Virus record (IMG/VR): IMGVR_UViG_3300045988_071887
Strand: one strand, 5' to 3'
Length of the DNA: 35,462 nt
Source: a virus
The position numbers were made by a program, and so were the translations under genes. Below are positions 1 through 10,835 of this stretch, one piece after another. Numbering within the stretch: position 1 is the stretch's first letter; the number at the start of each line of letters is the position of its first letter. Under the pieces are notes generated by a model that was given only the letters and a program-made list of their open reading frames with translations, searched no databases and had not been told where the DNA came from.

Positions 1-67
1 CCAATATGCGACAGCCCTGTACGACGGGCAGACTGACGAACTAATCAAGATCATAGCGCAATGTTAA
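1..67 (+). CDS. 3' fragment of the head-tail connector gene (duplicate of 35344..35410)
   Basis: Encodes ...QYATALYDGQTDELIKIIAQC-stop, identical to the end of the 34958..35410 ORF. Confidence 0.85.
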   Translation, partial: QYATALYDGQTDELIKIIAQC

Positions 68-119
68 GACAACCGAGAAACGCGAGGACATACAGGCAGC
101 CGATAGAGCTGCTGTTTGC
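1..119. repeat. Terminal direct repeat, copy 1 (assembly overlap / circular closure)
   Basis: ccaatatgcgacagccc...gctgctgtttgc is identical to 35344..35462 (offset 35343). Confidence 0.95.
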
Positions 120-1316: not shown

Positions 1317-1757
1317 ATGGTAAAATTGGGAAATGTGAGGAAATTCTACCTCACGACCGGAAAGACGGGCGGCACCTTCACATGGCTGAAGGGCGAGCAG
1401 AACAACAGCTTCAACCGCTCGGCAGAATCTATCGAGGTGAGTGACAAGTCTAACGACTGGGCACAATTCATTTCGGGCAAGAAGGGCGCGACCGCTTCGG
1501 TGACAGTCTTCACGGACGACACGGCGACCGAGCCGCAGCACAAGATGATCAGTTCTCTCCACAATGGGCAGCCGGTGTACGGCTTCATCGGCGAGCTGTC
1601 AGGAGACGGCGCGACTACACCGACGGAGGGAGACCTCTTCGAGGCTATCATCACCGGAATTTCGGACACCAACGACTACGGCGCGGTTGCGTCTCGTTCG
1701 ATGGACCTGACAATTACAGGAGCGCCGACACACTATCCGGCAATAACGGAGGAGTAG
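1317..1757 (+). CDS. Major tail (tube) protein, TP901-1/phi13-like
   Basis: 146 aa, lying immediately upstream of the chaperone frameshift pair and the TMP. The N-terminal motif VRKFYL..G....TFTWLKGEQNNSF..SAE.IEVSDKS is typical of siphovirus tube proteins. Confidence 0.7.
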   Translation: MVKLGNVRKFYLTTGKTGGTFTWLKGEQNNSFNRSAESIEVSDKSNDWAQFISGKKGATASVTVFTDDTATEPQHKMISSLHNGQPVYGFIGELSGDGATTPTEGDLFEAIITGISDTNDYGAVASRSMDLTITGAPTHYPAITEE

Positions 1758-2289: not shown

Positions 2290-2483
2290 CCTTGCAAATG
2301 AACCCTTACGTGAAGCAGAAGCCGTCCACGCCGGCGCTGTGGGTGCCGTTCGCATGGGAGAAGGACGCGGAGGCTGCAAAGGCACAGGAAGGAGACTGGC
2401 AAGTATCACAGCATGAACAACTGGAATTGGACAGATTGCTGGAAGATTTCATAACATCAAAAGAACATGGGAAAGATAGGTGA
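1759..2483 (+). CDS. Tail assembly chaperone, -1 frameshift fusion (GT-like) product, join(1759..2118,2118..2483)
   Basis: The -1 frame after the A10 run reads KKKISVWLDYADIEAFLVGRCGKSEEEAGWVSMRQYILLREAAEQDERRKWE..., which is clearly protein-like. It ends 17 nt inside the TMP gene. This is the canonical G/GT arrangement. Confidence 0.7.
2109..2118 (+). promoter_or_regulatory. Slippery A10 run (A AAA AAA type) for -1 ribosomal frameshifting
   Basis: 0-frame codons read gca aaa aaa aaa tct. The -1 frame reads aaa aaa aaa atc tct gtg tgg (KKKISVW). Confidence 0.65.
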
Positions 2484-4110
2484 CCTCTGGGTCAAGTTGA
2501 AACTCAAATCGGACGAATACAAGAAAGGGCTGGACGAGGCACAAAGCAAGACGCGGTCTTTTGCGGACAAGATAAAGGGTCTTTCTGCCGCAGCAGTTGC
2601 TGTGTGGGGAGCTATTGGCGCAGCAGCGACCAAGATGGCGCTTGACTTTGTCAAGTCCTCACAGACGATCGGAGACCAATGGGACATTCTTATGACGCAA
2701 GTCTCCACACGCTTGCAGCAGATACGTGCGGAATTCAACAGAGAGATAGCAGCGAACGGGTGGTTCAAAGGCTTTTTCAAGGCCTTTTTTTCCGACACAA
2801 CGGAAGTCGAAGCTATGGCTGTCGGTAAGGCTCTGTCTCAAGCCAAGGACGCCATGACGGAGATAGAGTATGCGTTCAGACTGAACATGGAGCAAACCGG
2901 TCCGAAACTTCACGAACTATATCTCAAAATGATGAATTCCGCGCTCTCTGCTTCTGATAGAGAGGCAGCGGCAAAGGACTACCGCAAGGAGGTAGAGGAC
3001 ATCTACGCGCCGCGAGTGAAAGGAATTAAGGACATCCTAGACAAGACTGTCCAGCAATATCTTGTGTTAGGCGGGATATCTCCGAATAAGTATAGCACCG
3101 AGAAGGTTGTAGACCTCATCAAGATGATGGGTTCAGATCCGGCCAAAGTTGAGCGCGAGTATAGTGATTTCTTCGCTGGTTATCAGAACCTCAGCGACGA
3201 CATCTCCGGCAATCTCGTGTCCACTATGGAGGCGTACTATAACACTATCAATGAGATGAACGACATGCTGAAGCGTGCCGACCGAACAGCGCAATCAATG
3301 GAGAATACAGGACTTGACGACCTCATCAAGAAACTTGGCAGCGTCAAGGACGGCATGTCGGACTTCCGTGCACAGGTCGCGGAAGAAGCGGAAGTGATGG
3401 CCGCCGACGAGGAGTTCCAGAAGATGTCCGACCCTCTGGAAGAGTTCGAGCGGACACACGACGAGGTGTTGAGCAACATGACGGAGAAGCAGCGGACATT
3501 CGCGGAGTTCGCACAGGAATCATTTGAGAAGGCAGCACGCGCCACGTATAATTACGCGCAACAGGAGCAAGAATCAATGAATATCGCTCAAGATGCAGCC
3601 GACACGGCAATAGAAGGACTGGAACAGCTCGAAAAGGCGTCTATTGCTGTTGGCGAATACCTCGGCGATGCTTTTGCAGCGAGCGTCTCGGATAGTTTCC
3701 AAACGCTTACAGACGCTCTCTCAGGCGTTAGCGACCTCGATGCTGGTTCGCTTACCTCGGCGCTCCTCAAACCGTTTGCGGATATGGCGAAGCAGATGGG
3801 TGAATTTCTTGTATCAATGGGAACCGCCATTCTGATTACCAAGAGGCTAGCCATCAAGAAGCCTGAATTAATGATAGCGGCAGGTGTTGCACTGACAGCT
3901 CTAGGCGCAGCCCTGTCAAGCGGCATACAGGCAATTTCCAATTCACTCGGCAGTGGCGGCGGTGCGTCATCATCCGCATCGGCAGGATCATCTACTCCAA
4001 CAACCGACAGCAACATTTCCACGGAAATGACAGTCTACGTGAAGGGCAAGATTTCCGGCAAGGACATACTCATATCGGGCGACAATGCACGAAGTTATTA
4101 CGGGAGGTAA
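2467..4110 (+). CDS. Tape measure protein
   Basis: 547 aa, helical and charged, with a C-terminal hydrophobic G/A/S-rich segment (LMIAAGVALTALGAALSSGIQAISNSLGSGGGASSS). It follows the chaperone frameshift pair. Confidence 0.8.
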   Translation: MGKIGDLWVKLKLKSDEYKKGLDEAQSKTRSFADKIKGLSAAAVAVWGAIGAAATKMALDFVKSSQTIGDQWDILMTQVSTRLQQIRAEFNREIAANGWFKGFFKAFFSDTTEVEAMAVGKALSQAKDAMTEIEYAFRLNMEQTGPKLHELYLKMMNSALSASDREAAAKDYRKEVEDIYAPRVKGIKDILDKTVQQYLVLGGISPNKYSTEKVVDLIKMMGSDPAKVEREYSDFFAGYQNLSDDISGNLVSTMEAYYNTINEMNDMLKRADRTAQSMENTGLDDLIKKLGSVKDGMSDFRAQVAEEAEVMAADEEFQKMSDPLEEFERTHDEVLSNMTEKQRTFAEFAQESFEKAARATYNYAQQEQESMNIAQDAADTAIEGLEQLEKASIAVGEYLGDAFAASVSDSFQTLTDALSGVSDLDAGSLTSALLKPFADMAKQMGEFLVSMGTAILITKRLAIKKPELMIAAGVALTALGAALSSGIQAISNSLGSGGGASSSASAGSSTPTTDSNISTEMTVYVKGKISGKDILISGDNARSYYGR

Positions 4111-4111
4111 C

Positions 4112-6400
4112 ATGGCGGAATATGGACTTAAATATGTGGCGAATTTCGACAGCCGAAAGGAAGCCGGCGCAAAGGCATTCACCTTGGAGATATGGCAGAA
4201 GGATCTGCCGCAATCATTCGAGGCAAAGACTATCCGCGCATGGCGAGGGCTGACGCTTGAGGTCGACGGAGACGACGACCCTGTCTCTCCTATCCAGAAG
4301 ACCATCGTGAATTTTACGCTCGTGGACGCGCCGGAAATTGCGGATGCGGCGACGGAGAAGTCTGGAGACTGGCAGGAGTTCTTCACGCCTGACAGCACAA
4401 TGTATAAGGTTATCATCAAGCAAGGGCAGCAATACTTGTGGAGCGGATTCATAACGCCCGACAACTGGCAGGAATCGCTGGACTATCGCGGAGCGGTGAC
4501 CATTACCGCACGCGACAACATCGGCCATCTCCAGGACTTCGATTTCGACCTTCAGGGAGACAATGCCGGCACGGCGACGATTGCCAACCTGCTGAAGGCG
4601 GCAATCGACAAGATAGACTTCCAGATGGCTATATATTACCTTCTCGGCGAGTGGGAGTATCAGTCTGCACACAAATGGATATTATACGACAATTCGGAAT
4701 TGGCGGACTTCCGCGTGAATGTGTCGCAGTTCGAAGGCAAGAACTGGTACGATGTCGTGGAATCAGTATTGTCCTCGTTGGGCCTGTTTATCCGTTACAC
4801 AGGGAACAACCAATACGTTGTGGGCCATCTGCGTTACTTGCCGTGGTTGGGGAATCCGACGCAGCAGAGCACTGATGTGCAGGATGTCGTTTTCCTCGGC
4901 GGCGGCACTCGCACCTACAAGCCGGCGTATAAGCGGATAGTCGAGAATATGAAATATGACTTCAGTGAAGAGGCGCAATATGAAGCATCGGACGGCTTGT
5001 CATTGAAAGCAGCTACCGACACATACACGACCAACATCTCCGTAATGATTCAGGAGCGTCCGGCGACATACGCGCAGATAACGGGTGCCGTTACTCGGAA
5101 CACCAATGCTGCCGCTAAAGGCTGGCAGACAGGAAACGGCTTCGGTCCATTGGCTGGCAGGACATCATCCGAGCTGGACCTTGACCACATAGCGCTATTG
5201 GCCGCCAACGAAAAAACCGCGTCAAAAGTGTTCGTCTACGACATCGACACATTGCTGGCCGGCATGAACGGCACGCTGGAGCTGCAATTCGCAGAAAGTC
5301 CTGCGATATATGCACAGCGAAGGGGGCGACAACCTGAATATGTGCTGCTGACACATTCTACGACTGGAGAAAGCGGTGGAATGACGGAAAGAAAAGAATT
5401 CACTCCGCACCTGTCGTCGCTCAAGTATGCGCTGATATTCACGACTTTGGACGGCACAAAATATTATAAGACAGAAACGAGCTGGCAGCAGGGGAGCAAG
5501 ATTCTTGAATATAACGAAAATCAGAATGCCGGCTCCATATCTTTCAATCTCGAGGATTCGTCCACCCTCATCGGGCAGACTCTGATGCGCACGGCCGGCC
5601 GCCTGCGTCTTGTCCTGTCGGAGATATACTTCGATGTCGGAGATGCTAACGTGTTATTGACGCCTCAAGGCTGCGGTGTATATATGGCTGTCACCGGCAT
5701 TTCCCTGAAGGCCGAAGCTGTCGGCAAACTGGAGTCAGACACGACCACGACAATCAACAATGACCATTACAACGTGACGGAAACGCGCTCTCCGGACATA
5801 GGGTTCCTGAGCCGTGACGTGGTTTGGCAAACGTCGCAGAACTACGGCAACGCCGTGTATTATGCGAACAGCGAGGGGCTCGTCGCGCCTGTCCTGTATC
5901 GCGTCACCTGGGATGGCGTGACTTCTCCGTTTCCGGTGTTCATTCACAAGCAGATCCTCCAATACCACCGCGAGCCGATGCAGATGCTGGAGGGTGACTG
6001 CATGCCTTCGCCGGCAGGAGTATGGAACTACAATGCCGTCGTCAGATACAAGGGGCATAAATTCCTGTTGCAGGGCGGCACGTATGACTTCGTTTCGGGC
6101 ATCATGTCCGGAGTGCGGCTCCACGAGTTCGAGCAGTACGACGACATCTGGAGCGAGGATGCACCGGAAGTGGGCGGCGTGTGGTCCGTGACGCTGGAGG
6201 CGGTTGGCCCGAACAAGATGCAAGTCATACATGCCCTGGTCGACAGCGCCGGCATTGCCTTAAAGGACGCAAAGACCATTGCGGACAATGCGCCTTCACT
6301 GGTAGGCAATAATTACACCCATGCTGAAGCACAGAGCATCCAGAAAGCGATAGCGGCGGCCGGAGGTACGGCCACCATTGCAGAAGTGACTACTAACTAA
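4112..6400 (+). CDS. Tail-tip/baseplate protein (Dit/Tal-like) with C-terminal bL12-CTD-like domain
   Basis: 762 aa from ATG 4112, with GGGAGG 5 nt upstream. It is the first large ORF after the TMP. The N-terminus MAEYGLKYVANFDS...FTLEIWQKD resembles distal-tail proteins of Bacteroidota phages. Confidence 0.6.
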   Translation: MAEYGLKYVANFDSRKEAGAKAFTLEIWQKDLPQSFEAKTIRAWRGLTLEVDGDDDPVSPIQKTIVNFTLVDAPEIADAATEKSGDWQEFFTPDSTMYKVIIKQGQQYLWSGFITPDNWQESLDYRGAVTITARDNIGHLQDFDFDLQGDNAGTATIANLLKAAIDKIDFQMAIYYLLGEWEYQSAHKWILYDNSELADFRVNVSQFEGKNWYDVVESVLSSLGLFIRYTGNNQYVVGHLRYLPWLGNPTQQSTDVQDVVFLGGGTRTYKPAYKRIVENMKYDFSEEAQYEASDGLSLKAATDTYTTNISVMIQERPATYAQITGAVTRNTNAAAKGWQTGNGFGPLAGRTSSELDLDHIALLAANEKTASKVFVYDIDTLLAGMNGTLELQFAESPAIYAQRRGRQPEYVLLTHSTTGESGGMTERKEFTPHLSSLKYALIFTTLDGTKYYKTETSWQQGSKILEYNENQNAGSISFNLEDSSTLIGQTLMRTAGRLRLVLSEIYFDVGDANVLLTPQGCGVYMAVTGISLKAEAVGKLESDTTTTINNDHYNVTETRSPDIGFLSRDVVWQTSQNYGNAVYYANSEGLVAPVLYRVTWDGVTSPFPVFIHKQILQYHREPMQMLEGDCMPSPAGVWNYNAVVRYKGHKFLLQGGTYDFVSGIMSGVRLHEFEQYDDIWSEDAPEVGGVWSVTLEAVGPNKMQVIHALVDSAGIALKDAKTIADNAPSLVGNNYTHAEAQSIQKAIAAAGGTATIAEVTTN
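6181..6397 (+). other. Ribosomal protein bL12 (L7/L12) C-terminal-domain-like module at the end of the tail-tip protein
   Basis: VWSVTLEAVGPNKMQVIHALVDSAGIALKDAKTIADNAPSLVGNNYTHAEAQSIQKAIAAAGGTATI aligns without gaps to E. coli bL12 [66 protein letters not shown]. About 21 of 66 residues are identical, including the GxNK..VI, G(L/I)xLK(E/D)AK, AP and AG motifs. Confidence 0.7.
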
Positions 6401-6415
6401 TTAATTATCATAATC

Positions 6416-7480
6416 ATGACAGCATTAAAGAAAATACGAATCGGCACGGACGCCATCATTGCCCTGTCGGTCAACATATCCGGCAAGCCGGTGACATGGA
6501 GCGAGGGCGACATCCGTCACGTGTACGCCTTCTCGGACGTCCAGGGCCAGCCAGTGGCGGAAATGTCCCACAAGGCTGAAGGGCAGACGCTGCGCTGCAC
6601 ATACGCGGCAAAAGACCAGAATTATACAGGACCTTTCCGTGTTATCGTCGAGTTCGCGGACGGCAAGGCGTTCTCTTCGTCGCTTGACGTTCCGGCATTC
6701 GAGATCGTCAGAACTACGGAAGAAGCGGATGCCGACACTGGAGAGGTCGTCCTGGACATTGACGGCACTATGCGCTTCTATTCATTATCCGAGGCAATCG
6801 CCAAGATAGAGGCTGCGACAAAAGCGGCCACCGATGCGGCAGCGGCAGCTGACAGGTCTGCCGGCAATGCGGACGCGAAAGCCACGGCGGCCAACGAGGC
6901 GGCGGTGAAGGCCAATGCGGCAGCAAAGGCGGCAGGAGCGACGAACACTAGCATCGCAGAGGCAGAGGAGCAGCGCGTCAATGCTGAAAACGCACGAAAA
7001 GAGGCTGAACTGGCACGTGCGGACGCGGAGAAGGCAAGAGCTTCGGCAGAGGACGAACGCGCCGAGGCAGAAGCCAAAAGGGCGGAAGCAGAGGAACAGA
7101 GAGCTACCGGCGAGCAGGCTCGTGTGAACGCCGAAACTGGCCGTGTCAATGCGGAATCTGCAAGGGTGAAGGCGGAAAGCGCAAGAGCCAATGCTGAAGC
7201 GACAAGAGCGGCAAACGAGGAGCAGCGGCAGAATAACGAGAAGGCAAGATCATCGGAAGAGGCTGTCCGCGTGGAAGCGGAAAAAGGAAGGGTAGCCGCC
7301 GAATCAGCACGTGTGACAGAGTTCGCTCGCCTGAAGAATGAATCAGAGACGGCAACGGACAATGCGACAAAGGCCGCGACAAGGGCGAACACTGCGGCGG
7401 CAGCGGCGGAGAAAGCAGCCACGATTGAGATTGTCGTGGATGCGGAGACAGGCATCATCAGCGTAATTAAGGACAAATAA
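6416..7480 (+). CDS. Tail fiber/whisker protein: N-terminal beta domain plus long E-x-x-R heptad coiled coil
   Basis: 354 aa. The N-terminal ~100 aa are beta-rich and are followed by an Ala/Glu/Arg-rich helical repeat region. It is located in the tail fiber block. Confidence 0.6.
   Translation: MTALKKIRIGTDAIIALSVNISGKPVTWSEGDIRHVYAFSDVQGQPVAEMSHKAEGQTLRCTYAAKDQNYTGPFRVIVEFADGKAFSSSLDVPAFEIVRTTEEADADTGEVVLDIDGTMRFYSLSEAIAKIEAATKAATDAAAAADRSAGNADAKATAANEAAVKANAAAKAAGATNTSIAEAEEQRVNAENARKEAELARADAEKARASAEDERAEAEAKRAEAEEQRATGEQARVNAETGRVNAESARVKAESARANAEATRAANEEQRQNNEKARSSEEAVRVEAEKGRVAAESARVTEFARLKNESETATDNATKAATRANTAAAAAEKAATIEIVVDAETGIISVIKDK
6962..7339 (+). repeat. 18 in-phase heptad repeats (A/N)-E-x-x-R-x-x
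   Basis: AEEQRVN AENARKE AELARAD AEKARAS AEDERAE AEAKRAE AEEQRAT GEQARVN AETGRVN AESARVK AESARAN AEATRAA NEEQRQN NEKARSS EEAVRVE AEKGRVA AESARVT EFARLKN. Confidence 0.9.
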
Positions 7481-7491
7481 AATCAAACGAT

Positions 7492-8073
7492 ATGGCAAAG
7501 GAAAACAAGACGATTGGCCGAGTGCCGGTGTCGAGGCACGAATACACCGACGGGGCGACTTATTACAAAGACAACATAGTGACAAGGTACGGCTCAGCCT
7601 TCCAGTGCGTGGTAGATTCTACCACTACGCCTCCGGCGACGATTGACGCTTCAGGCAAGGTGACGCTCGGCGAAGGGTGGATTTTCTTCGCGGACGCTTC
7701 CGGCGTGGCGGAGGTGAAGAATGCAGTCGAGGCCCTCAAGTCCGGCAAGGTGACAGACAACAGGGTGCTGGCTGAGGCTCTCGTAAGTCTTGAAGCCCGC
7801 ATCACCGCTCTTGAAGGCGGAAAGCCGTACCTCGGCGACGCAACTGCAGGCGTCATTGACGTTAATGAAATCACGCGGGCACGTTATCCGCTCGTGATGG
7901 TCGCGCACGGAGTTCCTGCTGAGGCAAACGTGCCGGACAACCTCCCTGCGGGGCTTCCGTGGGACGGAGTTCCCGCCTTCGTAGGGCAGCAGTACGTCAA
8001 CCTTGACGCTCCTTCCGGCGGTCTCTACTATGCGACAGGTAACGAGAATGTGAGTGATTGGAAACAGGCTTAA
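7492..8073 (+). CDS. Tail fiber / receptor-binding-type protein
   Basis: 193 aa. The N-terminal motif GRVPVSRHEYTDGATYYKDNIVTRYGSAFQCV is common in phage fiber proteins. A short coiled coil (LAEALVSLEARITALEG) follows. It lies in the fiber block. Confidence 0.5.
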   Translation: MAKENKTIGRVPVSRHEYTDGATYYKDNIVTRYGSAFQCVVDSTTTPPATIDASGKVTLGEGWIFFADASGVAEVKNAVEALKSGKVTDNRVLAEALVSLEARITALEGGKPYLGDATAGVIDVNEITRARYPLVMVAHGVPAEANVPDNLPAGLPWDGVPAFVGQQYVNLDAPSGGLYYATGNENVSDWKQA

Positions 8074-8086
8074 AAAGGATTGAATT

Positions 8087-9472
8087 ATGATAAGATATTT
8101 TGATACGGAGGCGGCTTACCTTGCCGCCGTGCAAGACGCTGAGAGTCGGGTCTCCCTCGTCGGAGAGAGCAACGCGTGCAAGTTCGACGGGCGCAACGTC
8201 ATTGTCGGAATTGACTCTGCCACGACTGGCAGCATAGCATACCTCGACGACAATAAGGCTCTCCGCTTTGTCGCCACCAGCACGTTCAACAAAGACAAGT
8301 TTCCGGCAAGTTATGAAATCGTAGGTGTGACGGCCATAGGCGTGGACCATCCGGACTTCAGAGGCGAAGTGGGTGTGATGCATTACAATTTTATTCACAA
8401 AGCGTTGCTAACTCGATATACCTACAAGCTATCGGGTTATACGCTTGACGGAGCAGAACATAGCGGAGTGTTAAGCATCAGAAGCGCTTCTGATAATTGG
8501 GCGGCAAACAAAGACTACACGATAGTATATAAAGCAGACAATATTGTCGCTCTAATATCGCAGCTCAACGATTATTTCAAGTCAAACGAGCCGTTCATCG
8601 CGCAAGACTGGGTAGCGATAGCGGACACAAATGATGACGTTCTTCTGCACTTTAACTACACAACTTGGCAACAGACTTCGAACAATACGGCGAAGTCGGG
8701 GTTTACAATTGCGGCAAAGACTGCTCCTCAATGGGTTCCTGTGGCAGGAATACTTAAAATGAATGGAGAAAGAAGTAATAATGCGATCATGAATATGCCG
8801 CGAGCATTGGCATACTTCAGAAAAGACACATCTGTTTCGTCTTATAATCCGACCATAGACGTTTCTGCGACAAATTTGAAATTTCCGATATGCCTGCCTG
8901 GTTATCTCGGAACGTCAAAATACCAAAGCGACCACTGCGCATACTTGAGAGGAATCTACGGAGAGGGCGAGGAAGGATGGCTCAAGTTTATGCAGAGCTT
9001 TCTTCCTGTTTTTCCGCAGGAGTATGGGGTGTTTAACGACAGGACAGCAGGAACAGCAAAACAGAACACCTACTATCTTGCAAACCTCAAGTTTACAGGA
9101 CAAGACGGCGTGGAAAAGTATGCCAGTCCAGCTGCGAGATTTGTGGTGGAACTTGGTTTTGAACACGAGCGGCTCAAGCATGGCGAATGGGTAATTCCGA
9201 AAATGTCGCAAGTATTCAGCGTTATCTGTCAGTTGCAGTACCCTGCGACGTCGGACAACAATTACGCGGACAAAATCAATGCAGCCCTCGCGGCAATAGG
9301 CGCACCTGCACTAAGCAATGGTGTCAATATTTGGTCTAGTGACAGGTCAGACGATAAAGATGCTTTGTTTTTTAATGGCACAGGAGGTTTTGCTAACGAC
9401 AACAACGTTTATAACACGTACCTGTCTTTTGCCATAGCGTTTTTGCCGCGTCAGCGCAATGATAATGTTTAA
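8087..9472 (+). CDS. Putative receptor-binding protein with DUF1566/Lcl-C-like C-terminal region (tentative)
   Basis: 461 aa, and the last large ORF before the lysis genes. The C-terminal pattern GEWVIPKMSQVFSVICQL...INAALAAIG...IWSSDRSDD...FFNGTGGF resembles the DUF1566 pattern W.LP...EL....in....yWSS. A sharp GC drop occurs inside the gene near 8390. Confidence 0.45.
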   Translation: MIRYFDTEAAYLAAVQDAESRVSLVGESNACKFDGRNVIVGIDSATTGSIAYLDDNKALRFVATSTFNKDKFPASYEIVGVTAIGVDHPDFRGEVGVMHYNFIHKALLTRYTYKLSGYTLDGAEHSGVLSIRSASDNWAANKDYTIVYKADNIVALISQLNDYFKSNEPFIAQDWVAIADTNDDVLLHFNYTTWQQTSNNTAKSGFTIAAKTAPQWVPVAGILKMNGERSNNAIMNMPRALAYFRKDTSVSSYNPTIDVSATNLKFPICLPGYLGTSKYQSDHCAYLRGIYGEGEEGWLKFMQSFLPVFPQEYGVFNDRTAGTAKQNTYYLANLKFTGQDGVEKYASPAARFVVELGFEHERLKHGEWVIPKMSQVFSVICQLQYPATSDNNYADKINAALAAIGAPALSNGVNIWSSDRSDDKDALFFNGTGGFANDNNVYNTYLSFAIAFLPRQRNDNV

Positions 9473-9742: not shown

Positions 9743-10197
9743 TCACAACACTGAATCTCCCTGACGGAATGTGCAGGGGGATTATGATAGCCTTCATGCT
9801 CTGCGTGCTCGTTTGCGCGGCGGCGTTGATTGACATGTGGACAGGCATAGACGCGGCGAAGGCGAATAAGGAAAAGATTATGAGCCACGGATTGCGTAAG
9901 ACTGTGAGGAAGATTATAGACTATCTGAGGATAGTGTACTTTTTCCTGTTGATTGACATCTTGGGCGCTGTGTTCGTATGGTACAACCTGCCGTACTGCG
10001 CGATTCTTGCGACGCTGGGCGTACTTCTCATTGAAGGGCGCTCCGTCATTGAGAACTCGCGGAAGAAGCAGAGCGCGGCTGGCAGAGTGGTGGATGCTGT
10101 TCAGGAGATTATCTCGTGCGTGGACAGCGAAAAGGCTCAAAGGATTATCGAGATGATCAAGGAAGAGCCGAAGCACGGCATCGGAAAAAAGGAGTAA
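9730..10197 (+). CDS. Holin (Phage_holin_4_1-like)
   Basis: 155 aa with 3 hydrophobic segments. It has the DMWTGIDAAKANKEKIMSHGLRKT motif (D..TG...A.....S.G..K) and lies immediately upstream of the endolysin. Confidence 0.75.
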   Translation: MDEIITTLNLPDGMCRGIMIAFMLCVLVCAAALIDMWTGIDAAKANKEKIMSHGLRKTVRKIIDYLRIVYFFLLIDILGAVFVWYNLPYCAILATLGVLLIEGRSVIENSRKKQSAAGRVVDAVQEIISCVDSEKAQRIIEMIKEEPKHGIGKKE

Positions 10198-10202
10198 GTG
10201 AG

Positions 10203-10835
10203 ATGGAGATTACATGTGACACATTGCGGAAGATATATCCGCAGTCGAAGAGCATTGCAAGATATTGCGAAGCTCTGCACCAAGCCATGCAGGAATGCGG
10301 CATCGACACGGCTGCAAGGGCGCGTGCATTCCTTGCGCAAATAGGGCACGAATCGGCGCAACTCAATCGCGTCGAGGAGAACCTGAACTACTCCGCGCAG
10401 GCATTGCGGAAGGTCTTTCCCAAGTATTTCCGCACTCCGCAGGAGGCCAGCTCATACGCGCATCATCCGGAAAGGATTGCCAACCGCGTCTATGCCGGAC
10501 GCATGGGCAATGGTGGAGAAGAGAGCGGTGACGGGTGGAAGTTCAGAGGACGCGGGCTGATTCAGATTACAGGGCGCGACAACTACGTGTCCATGTCGGC
10601 GCTGATGGGAAAGGACTTGACGATTTGGCCTGATGCTCTGCTGATGCCTCTGGATGCGTGTCGCTCTGCTGCTTTATGGTGGAAGGCAAACGGCCTGAAC
10701 GCATTGGCGGACAAGCTGGCGACGGACGAGCGCAAGACGTTCGAAGCGATTACAAGGCGCGTTAACGGAGGGTTGAGCGGACTAGAGGACAGGTGGGCGA
10801 TTTACCAAAGGGCGAAAAATAGTATTGTAGTCTAA
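10203..10835 (+). CDS. Endolysin, glycoside hydrolase family 19 (chitinase-like)
   Basis: 210 aa from ATG 10203. The motifs FLAQIGHESAQLNRVEENLNYS, YAGRMGNG, WKFRGRGLIQITGRDNY and RRVNGG are GH19 hallmarks. Confidence 0.85.
   Translation: MEITCDTLRKIYPQSKSIARYCEALHQAMQECGIDTAARARAFLAQIGHESAQLNRVEENLNYSAQALRKVFPKYFRTPQEASSYAHHPERIANRVYAGRMGNGGEESGDGWKFRGRGLIQITGRDNYVSMSALMGKDLTIWPDALLMPLDACRSAALWWKANGLNALADKLATDERKTFEAITRRVNGGLSGLEDRWAIYQRAKNSIVV

What the first reader, a model, noticed from the sequence alone, without database searches (positions are those of the whole stretch)
6181..6397. Ribosomal stalk protein bL12 C-terminal-domain-like module fused to the C-terminus of a virion tail-tip protein
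The last ~72 residues of the 762-aa tail-tip protein (VWSVTLEAVGPNKMQVIHALVDSAGIALKDAKTIADNAPSLVGNNYTHAEAQSIQKAIAAAGGTATI) align by eye, without gaps, to the E. coli bL12 C-terminal domain. About 21 of 66 residues are identical. The match includes the signature blocks GxNK..VI, G(L/I)xLK(E/D)AK, AP, and the K-A-(L/I)-x-x-AG tail.

In ribosomes this domain recruits the translational GTPases EF-Tu, EF-G, IF2 and RF3. Here the N-terminal dimerisation/L10-binding domain is absent. The module hangs off a structural protein through an acidic linker (EFEQYDDIWSEDAPEVGG).

Virus-encoded ribosomal protein homologs are known in general. I cannot assign a role to an L12 CTD on a tail tip. It could be an ejected effector that engages host translation factors, or a domain reused for binding something else.
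Basis: partly seen in the sequence, partly recalled or inferred. Interest (0 to 1): 0.8.

Follow-up and report, generated by a model that had tools for sequence, protein, structure and literature searches.

The report
Ribosomal-stalk-like domain on phage tail tip
A temperate phage of gut Bacteroidales carries a real copy of the ribosomal bL12 C-terminal domain on a flexible linker at the end of its tail-tip hub protein; it sits in a slot where related phages carry sugar-binding or fibre modules, so it is more likely a reused binding module than a translation component.

Summary
Residues 699-768 of the 762/771-aa protein (nt 6179-6388) match Pfam PF00542 (E 3e-12, 46.9 bits against a cut-off of 25.9). 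An AlphaFold model superposes on E. coli bL12 CTD (1ctf; TM 0.84-0.89, rmsd 1.4 A). The carrier is a baseplate-hub/Tal-like protein (Mu gp44/VgrG fold) encoded directly after the tape-measure gene of a complete 35.3-kb circular siphophage. A 96%-identical copy lies in a Bacteroides sp. CAG:709 scaffold.

The fusion is not an artefact. Ten protein clusters (28-89% identical) and 13 of 80 IMG/VR loci carry it in frame.

The domain is an optional add-on. Close relatives end at the same ...Y-D-D-L-W junction with nothing, with BACON arrays, or with fibre/S74 modules. One phage lacking the domain keeps the same downstream genes.

PF00542-like domains are also common outside ribosomes, in signal-peptide, adhesin, LRR and TIR proteins. 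These keep the same "factor-binding" residues, so those residues say little about function.

I read it as a flexibly tethered accessory binding module. The ejected translation-effector idea is untested and less likely. It is a new variant of the phage-embedded bL12 domains of Mizuno et al. 2019.

The parts
4112..6400 (+). Gene for the tail-tip hub (Tal/baseplate-hub-like) protein with the C-terminal bL12-CTD-like module. It is 762 aa from M10; the longest ORF starts at 4085 (771 aa).
   Evidence: ORF list. M10 is nearly invariant as the start in 117 homologs. The ATG at 4112 is 2 nt after the tape-measure stop. The AF2 model has pLDDT 90.2 and pTM 0.82.
4112..6151 (+). Conserved core (aa 10-689) ending in the ...LHEFEQYDDIW helix. 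The N-terminal part has the gp27/gp44/VgrG-like hub fold.
   Evidence: Foldseek against PDB: Mu gp44 1wru (E 5e-7), PVC spike, VgrG1, Listeria gp18 3gs9, NF5 tail-associated lysin. There are 116 homologs, and the core ends at the same W in nearly all.
4985..5764 (+). Variable, mosaic middle region of the hub (aa ~301-560).
   Evidence: This region is replaced in P0002 and P0006 while the flanks stay similar. It has the lowest identity and highest dN/dS of the regions. Foldseek gives weak matches to laminin/netrin LN jelly-roll domains.
6152..6178 (+). Flexible acidic/Gly linker SEDAPEVGG (aa 690-698).
   Evidence: pLDDT <50 at 692-697. Length and sequence vary from 0 to about 20 aa among relatives with the domain.
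6179..6388 (+). bL12 C-terminal-domain-like module (aa 699-768). The Pfam envelope is aa 701-765, nt 6185-6379.
   Evidence: PF00542 E 3.4e-12. Fold match to 1ctf, TM 0.84/0.89, rmsd 1.4 A. 35% identical to the Bacteroides fragilis bL12 CTD.
2467..4110 (+). Tape-measure-like protein (547 aa) immediately upstream.
   Evidence: Position after the tail tube and chaperones. 50-64% identical to proteins in the same position in related phages, one of which matches PF10145 PhageMin_Tail.
1317..1757 (+). Major tail (tube) protein.
   Evidence: phrog_1407 major tail protein, E 1.3e-11. PF06199 matches weakly.
6416..9472 (+). Three downstream tail-fibre/baseplate-associated genes (354-aa Ala/Glu-rich coiled-coil protein, 193 aa, 461 aa).
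   Evidence: PHROG hits to virion structural and tail fibre families. Conserved at 57-86% identity in the related phage L011, whose hub lacks the L12 module.

Best explanation
SHOWN. The last ~70 residues of the tail-tip hub protein are a true member of the ribosomal bL12 C-terminal-domain family (PF00542). They lack the bL12 N-terminal dimerisation/uL10-binding domain. They hang off the conserved hub core by a short disordered acidic/Gly linker. The hub has a gp27/gp44/VgrG-like fold and is encoded directly after the tape-measure gene of a complete temperate siphophage of Bacteroidales. The module occupies a variable C-terminal 'accessory slot'. Homologous hubs stop at the same Trp with no extension, or continue there with BACON repeat arrays, Gly-rich fibre segments with an S74 chaperone, or this L12-like domain.

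INFERRED. The hub is presumably a trimer, so three copies per virion would sit at the tail tip as flexibly tethered capture domains. This would repeat the 'globular head on a hinge' design of the ribosomal stalk, but with a different cargo. The most likely task is an accessory, dispensable binding or adhesion step at the host envelope during adsorption, analogous to the BACON and fibre modules of relatives. Recruitment of translational GTPases is less likely. The ligand is unknown.
For: - **Identity of the domain.** Pfam E 3.4e-12. Fold TM 0.84-0.90 and rmsd 1.2-1.4 A to 1ctf/8yeq.
- **Identity of the carrier.** Foldseek hits to Mu gp44, VgrG, PVC spike, Listeria gp18 and NF5 Tal. The gene order tube-chaperones-TMP-hub-fibres holds in the window and in L001, L009, L010 and L011.
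- **Real, recurrent fusion.** Ten clusters at 28-89% identity. A 96% copy lies in a Bacteroides sp. CAG:709 scaffold. 13 of 80 IMG/VR loci carry it in frame.
- **Accessory slot.** The tails after the conserved W are none, L12, BACON (PF13004/PF19190) or fibre/Peptidase_S74.
- **Dispensable.** In the core tree, hubs lacking the domain (P0009; P0011-17) are nested among or sister to hubs that have it. A distant hub with it (P0097) sits among BACON-tailed hubs. Phage L011, which lacks it, keeps the same downstream genes at 57-86% identity.
- **Maintained, not decaying.** The CTD diverges in step with the core (51/41/36% against 56/51/36% identity), with dN/dS 0.2-0.4.
- **The fold is used outside the cytoplasm.** Top-scoring PF00542 proteins include a lipoprotein with six repeats, and signal-peptide proteins that combine it with LRR, Cleaved_Adhesin, fn3, dockerin, Ig, SprB or SPOR domains.
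- **The 'factor-binding' residues are not diagnostic.** K65/K70/L80/E82/K84 are kept at 66-90% even in signal-peptide proteins. The Tal family relaxes R73, G79, L80 and E82.
- **No sign of recent capture from host rplL.** 35% identity to the B. fragilis bL12 CTD, against 45% to the best non-ribosomal repeat.
Against: - No ligand or binding assay exists. The adhesion role rests on positional analogy with the BACON and fibre tails of homologs and on the extracellular use of the fold elsewhere.
- I could not obtain coordinates or PAE, nor model the trimer. Whether the CTD points outward is not shown.
- Most helix-4/helix-5 residues that contact EF-G in bL12 (V66-V68, K70, L80, E82; PMC5887453) are conservatively retained in most family members. 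Factor binding is therefore not excluded.
- PF00542 domains also occur in clearly cytoplasmic proteins (TIR, kinase, PNP fusions). The fold itself does not indicate a compartment.
- The signal-peptide classification is a crude heuristic.
- dS is saturated in the dN/dS estimates.
Confidence: 0.45

Rival explanations
1. Translation-factor or ribosome engagement. The tethered L12-like head binds translational GTPases (EF-Tu, EF-G, IF2) or the stalk base. It would do so either after delivery with the tail tip at infection, or in the cytoplasm of the producing cell before assembly, to bias or inhibit host translation.
For: It is a true PF00542 member with the bL12 CTD fold. Most helix-4/5 contact residues are conservatively kept (K65 K/R 90%, K70 K/R 81%, A83 and K84 100%). 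Mizuno et al. detected a peptide of a phage bL12-domain protein in purified E. coli 70S ribosomes (PMC6375957).
Against: - The N-terminal domain that anchors bL12 to uL10 is absent, so it cannot be a stalk subunit.
- The same residues are just as conserved in exported, signal-peptide PF00542 proteins, so they are not diagnostic.
- R73, G79, L80 and E82 vary within the phage family.
- The module is lost in close relatives without other changes in the tail module.
- It shares its slot with BACON and fibre modules.
- From general knowledge, siphophage Tal/hub proteins stay at the envelope and the tape measure is what is ejected. In Mizuno et al. the affinity-tagged phage bL12 protein could not be used to purify ribosomes.
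Confidence: 0.15
2. Structural or assembly helper. The small, highly soluble alpha/beta domain has no external ligand. It caps or stabilises the hub C-terminus, or docks onto another baseplate component.
For: It is dispensable in relatives. The domain is small, acidic and independently folding. Purifying selection is moderate.
Against: The disordered linker, variable in length from 0 to about 20 aa, argues against a fixed structural contact. The downstream partners are the same whether or not the domain is present. Persistence over divergence down to 28% core identity suggests a selected function.
Confidence: 0.2
3. Anti-defence decoy. The L12 mimic, made in quantity late in infection or carried on the virion, binds host factors that recognise the stalk protein, and so blunts a defence. 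Candidates are conflict-system proteins that themselves carry or target L12-like domains.
For: PF00542 domains are fused to TIR, PNP-nucleosidase/pentapeptide and kinase modules in many bacteria. L12/ClpS-domain insertions in Bacteroidetes vWA-MoxR conflict proteins are noted in PMC7159879. In N4-like phages the domain sits in rIIB-like proteins. By general knowledge (not tested here), rII proteins are linked to countering phage exclusion.
Against: This is purely associative. A tail hub is a low-copy late structural protein, an odd vehicle for a decoy. No defence gene is linked to the domain's presence or absence in the loci examined.
Confidence: 0.1
4. Assembly or frameshift artefact that falsely joins a stray L12-like ORF to the tail gene.
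For: None found.
Against: The reading frame is continuous in the window. The same in-frame fusion appears in independent assemblies: Logan, ENA, an NCBI scaffold and 13 IMG/VR contigs. The CTD co-diverges with the core.
Confidence: 0.01

Closest known systems
Bacterial ribosomal stalk protein bL12 (L7/L12), C-terminal domain (PF00542; PDB 1ctf)
   Same: Same sequence family and the same beta-alpha-alpha-beta-alpha-beta fold (rmsd 1.4 A). 31-35% identity to the E. coli and Bacteroides fragilis CTDs. It also shares the design of a globular head on a flexible hinge in several copies.
   Different: It has no N-terminal dimerisation/uL10-binding domain. It is anchored to a phage tail hub instead of the ribosome and is encoded in a tail module rather than the rplJL operon. 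R73 and G79 are not conserved, and K70, L80 and E82 vary within the family. A family-specific conserved Gly-x-x-Tyr lies in strand 2.
Phage-encoded bL12-domain proteins (Mizuno et al. 2019, PMC6375957)
   Same: A PF00542 domain embedded in a larger phage polypeptide. Homologs specifically lack the domain, and acquisition appears repeated and independent. All of this is also seen here.
   Different: In cultivated phages the domain is in small early-region proteins (Ralstonia RSB3/RSJ5) or in rIIB-like proteins of N4-like podophages. None is in a tail protein. Here the carrier is a virion tail-tip hub of a Bacteroidales siphophage, and the domain sits in a slot shared with BACON and fibre modules.
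Siphophage Tal / baseplate hub proteins (gp27-like: Mu gp44, Listeria gp18, NF5 Tal, T6SS VgrG) with variable C-terminal extensions
   Same: Hub fold in the N-terminal part and a gene immediately after the tape measure. The C-terminal extensions are modular and exchangeable: BACON, fibre or S74 chaperone in relatives.
   Different: No known Tal or hub is reported with a ribosomal-protein domain as its extension. No separate Dit gene is evident in this phage group.
Non-ribosomal PF00542 repeat proteins of bacteria (secreted/lipoprotein, LRR, Cleaved_Adhesin and TIR fusions; L12/ClpS insertions in Bacteroidetes vWA proteins, PMC7159879)
   Same: The same domain used as a detachable module away from the ribosome. 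The best non-family match (P0131) is 45% identical and shares the W-x-V-T-L start and the AAGGTA-x-I end.
   Different: Those proteins usually carry 2-9 tandem copies and are cellular or of unknown origin. Here a single copy sits on a virion protein.
ClpS adaptor (same fold superfamily)
   Same: Related alpha/beta fold (TM about 0.72).
   Different: Only 12-18% identity. No ClpS Pfam hit, and the sequence clearly belongs to PF00542.

Membership tests
bL12 C-terminal domain family (Pfam PF00542) | Sequence match to the family profile above the curated gathering score | tested here: met
   46.9 bits against a cut-off of 25.9, E 3.4e-12, profile positions 2-66 of 67.
bL12 C-terminal domain family (Pfam PF00542) | Three-strand/three-helix beta-alpha-alpha-beta-alpha-beta fold | tested here: met
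   AF2 pLDDT 92.5. Foldseek top hit 1ctf, TM 0.84/0.89, rmsd 1.4 A.
Ribosomal protein bL12 (functional stalk subunit) | N-terminal dimerisation/uL10-binding domain (PF16320) and hinge | tested here: not met
   Only PF00542 is found, even at E<=10. The preceding 690 residues are a tail-hub core. Genuine Bacteroides bL12 has PF16320+PF00542.
Ribosomal protein bL12 (functional stalk subunit) | Conservation of the GTPase-contact residues V66-V68, K70, L80, E82 (PMC5887453) | tested here: inconclusive
   The window has M-Q-V, H, L, D. The family has K70 as K/R in 81%, L80 in 63% and E82 in 27% (D in 54%). The same residues are equally or better conserved in exported PF00542 proteins, so they do not discriminate.
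Ribosomal protein bL12 (functional stalk subunit) | Binds EF-G/EF-Tu/IF2/RF3 and stimulates GTPase activity on the ribosome | not testable with these tools
   Needs NMR, ITC or a translation assay.
Tal / baseplate hub (gp27-gp44-VgrG-like) | gp27/gp44-like hub fold | tested here: met
   Foldseek: 1wru Mu gp44 (E 5e-7, TMt 0.44), 3d37, 3gs9, 9m7n NF5 Tal, VgrG and CIS spikes, probability 1.0.
Tal / baseplate hub (gp27-gp44-VgrG-like) | Gene directly downstream of the tape-measure gene in a tail module | tested here: met
   Window: TMP 2467-4110, hub from 4112. The order is the same in L001, L009, L010 and L011.
Tal / baseplate hub (gp27-gp44-VgrG-like) | Trimer closing the distal end of the tail tube; present in virions | not testable with these tools
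   Needs cryo-EM or virion proteomics.
Virus-encoded bL12-domain proteins (Mizuno et al. 2019) | PF00542 domain encoded in a bona fide viral genome | tested here: met
   The window carries integrase, ERF, TerL, portal, capsid and a tail module, and is circular with a 119-bp terminal overlap. Relatives lie on IMG/VR viral contigs.
Virus-encoded bL12-domain proteins (Mizuno et al. 2019) | Association of the protein with 70S ribosomes | not testable with these tools
   Reported for one Salmonella phage protein only, with one peptide detected and affinity purification failing.

The most novel reading that the evidence does not exclude
The virion-borne L12 head really does bind a translational GTPase. 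It might use surface- or vesicle-exposed EF-Tu as a (co-)receptor, or engage EF-G/EF-Tu/IF2 once the tail tip has breached the envelope. If so, a phage would have turned the ribosome's factor-recruiting domain into part of its infection apparatus. As a corollary, the many exported bacterial PF00542 repeat proteins would form an unrecognised family of extracellular binding modules sharing that ligand class.
Probability: 0.07. Interest if true: 0.85.

Novelty: new variant of a known kind. Interest (0 to 1): 0.45.

Why it matters
**It places a ribosomal-protein domain on a virion structural protein.** As far as the collections and papers searched here show, this context is not among the published phage bL12 cases. 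Those are small early proteins and rIIB-like proteins.

**It cautions against a common shortcut.** PF00542 hits in viral genomes are counted as 'virus-encoded ribosomal proteins'. Here the domain behaves like a swappable accessory module, interchangeable with BACON and fibre modules. The same domain is also widespread in secreted, adhesin-type and TIR proteins.

**It gives a tractable system.** The phage is a 35-kb temperate Bacteroidales phage with natural variants that have and lack the domain. That makes it possible to ask what a non-ribosomal L12 domain binds.

Tried and rejected
- **tblastn against INPHARED phages.** The whole 771-aa protein and its CTD gave no match. No cultivated relative could be used.
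- **Word-indexed search with the 73-aa CTD alone.** It returned only two fragments of the same family.
- **PHROGs.** It gave only weak hits to unknown-function families that are themselves L12-domain families, such as phrog_26927. This added no functional information.
- **Literature searches.** Searches for L12 domains on tails, PF00542 and TIR-L12 fusions found nothing specific. The useful papers were Mizuno 2019 and one remark in Kaur 2020.
- **Recent capture from host rplL.** Rejected. Identity to the B. fragilis bL12 CTD is only 35%. The Tal CTDs are about equally distant from true bL12 (36-43%) and from non-ribosomal copies (35-47%). The origin is unresolved. The rplL of Bacteroides sp. 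CAG:709 itself could not be fetched.
- **Docking-site idea.** I asked whether the domain docks a particular downstream protein. Rejected, because phage L011 lacks the domain and has the same downstream genes.
- **dN/dS.** Only indicative, because dS is saturated (>1) for all but the 96% relative, whose CTD is identical.
- **Orientation of the CTD.** It could not be assessed.
- **Frameshift artefact.** Rejected.
Full report
**1. The observation.** The window holds an ORF at 4085..6400 (+) of 771 aa. In an alignment of 117 homologs the start corresponds to M10. Its ATG at 4112 lies 2 nt after the stop of the upstream gene.

hmmscan against Pfam-A, even at E<=10, finds a single family. This is PF00542 (Ribosomal protein L7/L12 C-terminal domain) at residues 701-765, covering profile positions 2-66 of 67. 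The score is E 3.4e-12 and 46.9 bits against a gathering score of 25.9. The isolated 92-residue tail gives E 1.4e-13.

The alignment to the E. coli bL12 CTD is gapless with 21/68 identities. phmmer against all PDB sequences returns only bL12 proteins, the best at E 8.5e-8.

The AlphaFold2 model of the whole protein has 117 sequences, mean pLDDT 90.2 and pTM 0.82. It gives residues 699-768 as beta-alpha-alpha-beta-alpha-beta at pLDDT about 96, preceded by a segment with pLDDT <50 at 692-697. A separate model of the 73-residue module (pLDDT 92.5) has E. coli L7/L12 CTD 1ctf as its best PDB match (TM 0.84/0.89, rmsd 1.4 A). Other bL12 CTDs follow, and ClpS comes only at TM about 0.72.

There are two small corrections. 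The first codon of the module starts at 6179. The EFEQYDDIW part of the 'linker' is in fact the conserved last helix of the core, so the real linker is SEDAPEVGG.

**2. What carries the domain.** The neighbours are a tail terminator (620-1315), a tail tube protein (1317-1757), putative chaperones and a 547-aa tape-measure-like protein (2467-4110). After the hub come three fibre-like or unknown proteins (6416-9472) and an endolysin (10116-10835). Elsewhere the window encodes an integrase, ERF recombinase, large terminase, portal and HK97-type capsid.

The first and last 119 bases of the window are identical. It is therefore a complete circular assembly of about 35.3 kb.

Foldseek of the full model against the PDB gives baseplate hub and spike proteins. 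These include Mu gp44, the Photorhabdus PVC spike, VgrG proteins, the Listeria prophage gp18 tail protein and the phage NF5 tail-associated lysin. Independently, it matches bL12 CTDs for the last 70 residues. 'Tail-tip protein' is therefore right: it is a Tal/baseplate-hub homolog.

A 96%-identical copy lies inside a 106-kb scaffold of Bacteroides sp. CAG:709. All other genomic relatives are in Bacteroidales assemblies. The host is a gut Bacteroidales bacterium.

**3. The fusion is real, old and optional.** The large protein collection holds 116 homologs. Ten clusters, 28-89% identical to the window protein, carry PF00542 at the C-terminus. Two of them stand for 296 and 140 member sequences.

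The contigs behind three of them (L001, L009, L010) show the same tail-module order. IMG/VR holds 110 relatives. Of the best 80 loci, 13 have the L12-like domain in frame at the end of the hub ORF. A frameshift or chimeric assembly is excluded.

Nearly all homologs share a core that ends at the same Trp (...Y-D/E-D-L-W). What follows differs:
- nothing, or up to 17 residues (the majority);
- the L12-like domain, directly or after up to about 20 linker residues;
- 190-550 residues of BACON repeats (PF13004/PF19190);
- Gly-rich linkers followed by fibre-like segments, some with the Peptidase_S74 intramolecular chaperone (PF13884).

A neighbour-joining tree of the core puts the window and P0001-P0008 in one clade. 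P0009, which lacks the domain, is nested inside it. P0010, which has the domain, is sister to P0011-17, which lack it. P0097, which has it, lies far away among BACON-tailed hubs. The domain has therefore been gained, lost or exchanged several times.

Phage L011 (P0009) lacks the domain. Its tape measure is 64% identical to the window's, and its three downstream proteins are 59%, 86% and 57% identical. Presence of the domain is thus not tied to a particular partner gene.

Where the domain is present it diverges in step with the core. CTD identity is 51, 41 and 36%, against 56, 51 and 36% for the N-terminal hub. dN/dS is 0.2-0.4, though dS is saturated. The domain is maintained by selection rather than decaying.

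**4. PF00542 is not only a ribosomal domain.** I searched a profile of the eleven Tal CTDs against 1.84 billion representative proteins. It found 10,387 proteins at E<=1e-3. The 150 best are almost all proteins with two to nine tandem copies of the domain.

All 118 that were scanned match PF00542 strongly. Their other domains include TIR (15 proteins), SPOR, BspA-type and other LRRs, Cleaved_Adhesin, SprB, dockerin, Ig, protein kinase and PNP_UDP.

Many begin with a signal peptide or lipobox, directly followed by the domain. One example is P0117, a lipoprotein with six copies separated by Ser-rich linkers. Others are P0174 and P0181 (signal peptide, two copies, LRRs) and P0161 (Cleaved_Adhesin plus fn3). 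The fold is therefore used outside the cytoplasm, where there are no translation factors.

The residues that contact EF-G in bL12 are V66-V68, K70, L80 and E82, as summarised in PMC5887453. They are retained at 66-90% in these putatively exported proteins. In the Tal family R73 and G79 are not conserved, L80 is kept in 63%, and E82 is mostly Asp.

The window CTD is 35% identical (52 bits) to the Bacteroides fragilis bL12 CTD. It is 45% identical (60 bits) to the best non-ribosomal copy. Across the family the two comparisons overlap, at 36-43% against 35-47%. There is no sign of a recent capture from the host rplL, and the origin is unresolved.

**5. What is already known.** Mizuno et al. 2019 reported bL12 domains in seven cultivated phages and in viral metagenomes. 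They noted that the domain is often embedded in much larger polypeptides of up to 724 aa. They also noted that homologs exist without it, and that it was acquired repeatedly (PMC6375957).

In the phage collection searched here, a consensus L12 probe finds the domain in two settings. In N4-like phages it lies under genes annotated rIIB-like. In Ralstonia phages it lies in small hypothetical proteins. It is never found in a tail gene.

BFVD lists bL12-CTD proteins in crAss-like phages. Kaur et al. 2020 remark on L12/ClpS-domain insertions in Bacteroidetes vWA conflict proteins (PMC7159879).

The kind, a phage protein with an embedded bL12 CTD, is therefore known. The tail-tip hub as carrier, and the slot shared with BACON and fibre modules, are new as far as I could find.

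**6. Mechanism.**

*Shown:* a PF00542 head, a disordered linker, a hub/Tal carrier, an exchangeable C-terminal slot, dispensability and purifying selection.

*Inferred:* the hub forms a trimer at the distal end of the tail, as gp27-like hubs do (established knowledge, not tested here). Three heads per virion would then dangle on short tethers. This copies the stalk's fly-casting design.

Homologs place glycan-binding-type BACON arrays or fibre segments at the same junction, and the fold is used in secreted adhesin-type proteins. I therefore consider an accessory binding step at the host envelope the most likely role (confidence about 0.45).

The rivals are:
- engagement of translational GTPases or ribosomes (0.15);
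- a purely structural or assembly role (0.2);
- a decoy against defence proteins that use or target L12-like domains (0.1);
- an artefact (<=0.01).

None of the functional readings has direct experimental support. The orientation of the head could not be assessed with the tools at hand.

**7. Verdict.** The finding is real and correctly described. It is a new variant of a known kind. It is interesting mainly for two reasons. It shows a 'ribosomal' domain serving as a swappable virion accessory module. It also exposes a large, little-discussed set of non-ribosomal PF00542 proteins. Interest is 0.45. The most novel reading not excluded is a virion-borne head that really binds EF-Tu or EF-G. I give it a probability of about 0.07.

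Noticed in passing
window 1-119 and 35344-35462: The first and last 119 bases are identical. The window is therefore a circular assembly of a complete temperate siphophage genome of about 35.3 kb, with integrase, ERF, TerL, portal, capsid, tail and endolysin genes.
   Followed up: partly
proteins P0117-P0265, not in the window: There is a very large set of non-ribosomal proteins with 2-9 tandem PF00542 (bL12 CTD) repeats. Many have signal peptides or lipoboxes, with LRR, Cleaved_Adhesin, fn3, dockerin, Ig, SprB or SPOR domains. At least 15 have N-terminal TIR domains. Others have zinc ribbons, kinases or a PNP nucleosidase. I found almost no literature on them.
   Followed up: partly
window 4985-5764 (hub aa ~301-560): The middle of the hub is mosaic. 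P0002 is near-identical to the window at both ends but has a different middle, like that of P0006. This region has the lowest identity and highest dN/dS, and gives weak Foldseek matches to laminin/netrin LN jelly-roll domains. It may be the real specificity determinant.
   Followed up: partly
window 2467-6400; L001, L009, L010, L011: No separate distal-tail (Dit) gene lies between the tape-measure gene and the hub gene in this phage group. The hub starts 2-5 nt after the tape-measure stop.
   Followed up: no
window 6416-7480: The 354-aa protein has a long Ala/Glu/Arg-rich repetitive coiled-coil segment (AEEQR..., AEKAR..., AESAR... repeats). It is probably a fibre shaft. Its N-terminal ~138 aa is conserved in relatives while the rest varies.
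   Followed up: no
window 10116-10835: This protein matches the endolysin family phrog_181 strongly (E 7e-79) but has no Pfam-A hit at E<=0.01.
   Followed up: no
phage records H20-H26, e.g. Pectobacterium phage Nepra 50807-50932: In N4-like phages the bL12-like domain lies inside the gene annotated as rIIB-like protein. One record annotates the same gene as DNA polymerase I and another as lytic transglycosylase, which looks like annotation error.
   Followed up: no
L001 17984-18478: The related phage contig carries a SocA_Panacea (PF13274) antitoxin-type gene downstream of the lysis region.
   Followed up: no
hits H1-H17: Several records in the phage collection that hit the L12 probe at 60-83% identity are bacterial rplL genes on contigs labelled as phage, or on Salmonella draft contigs. 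This is contamination in the collection rather than phage-encoded bL12.
   Followed up: no
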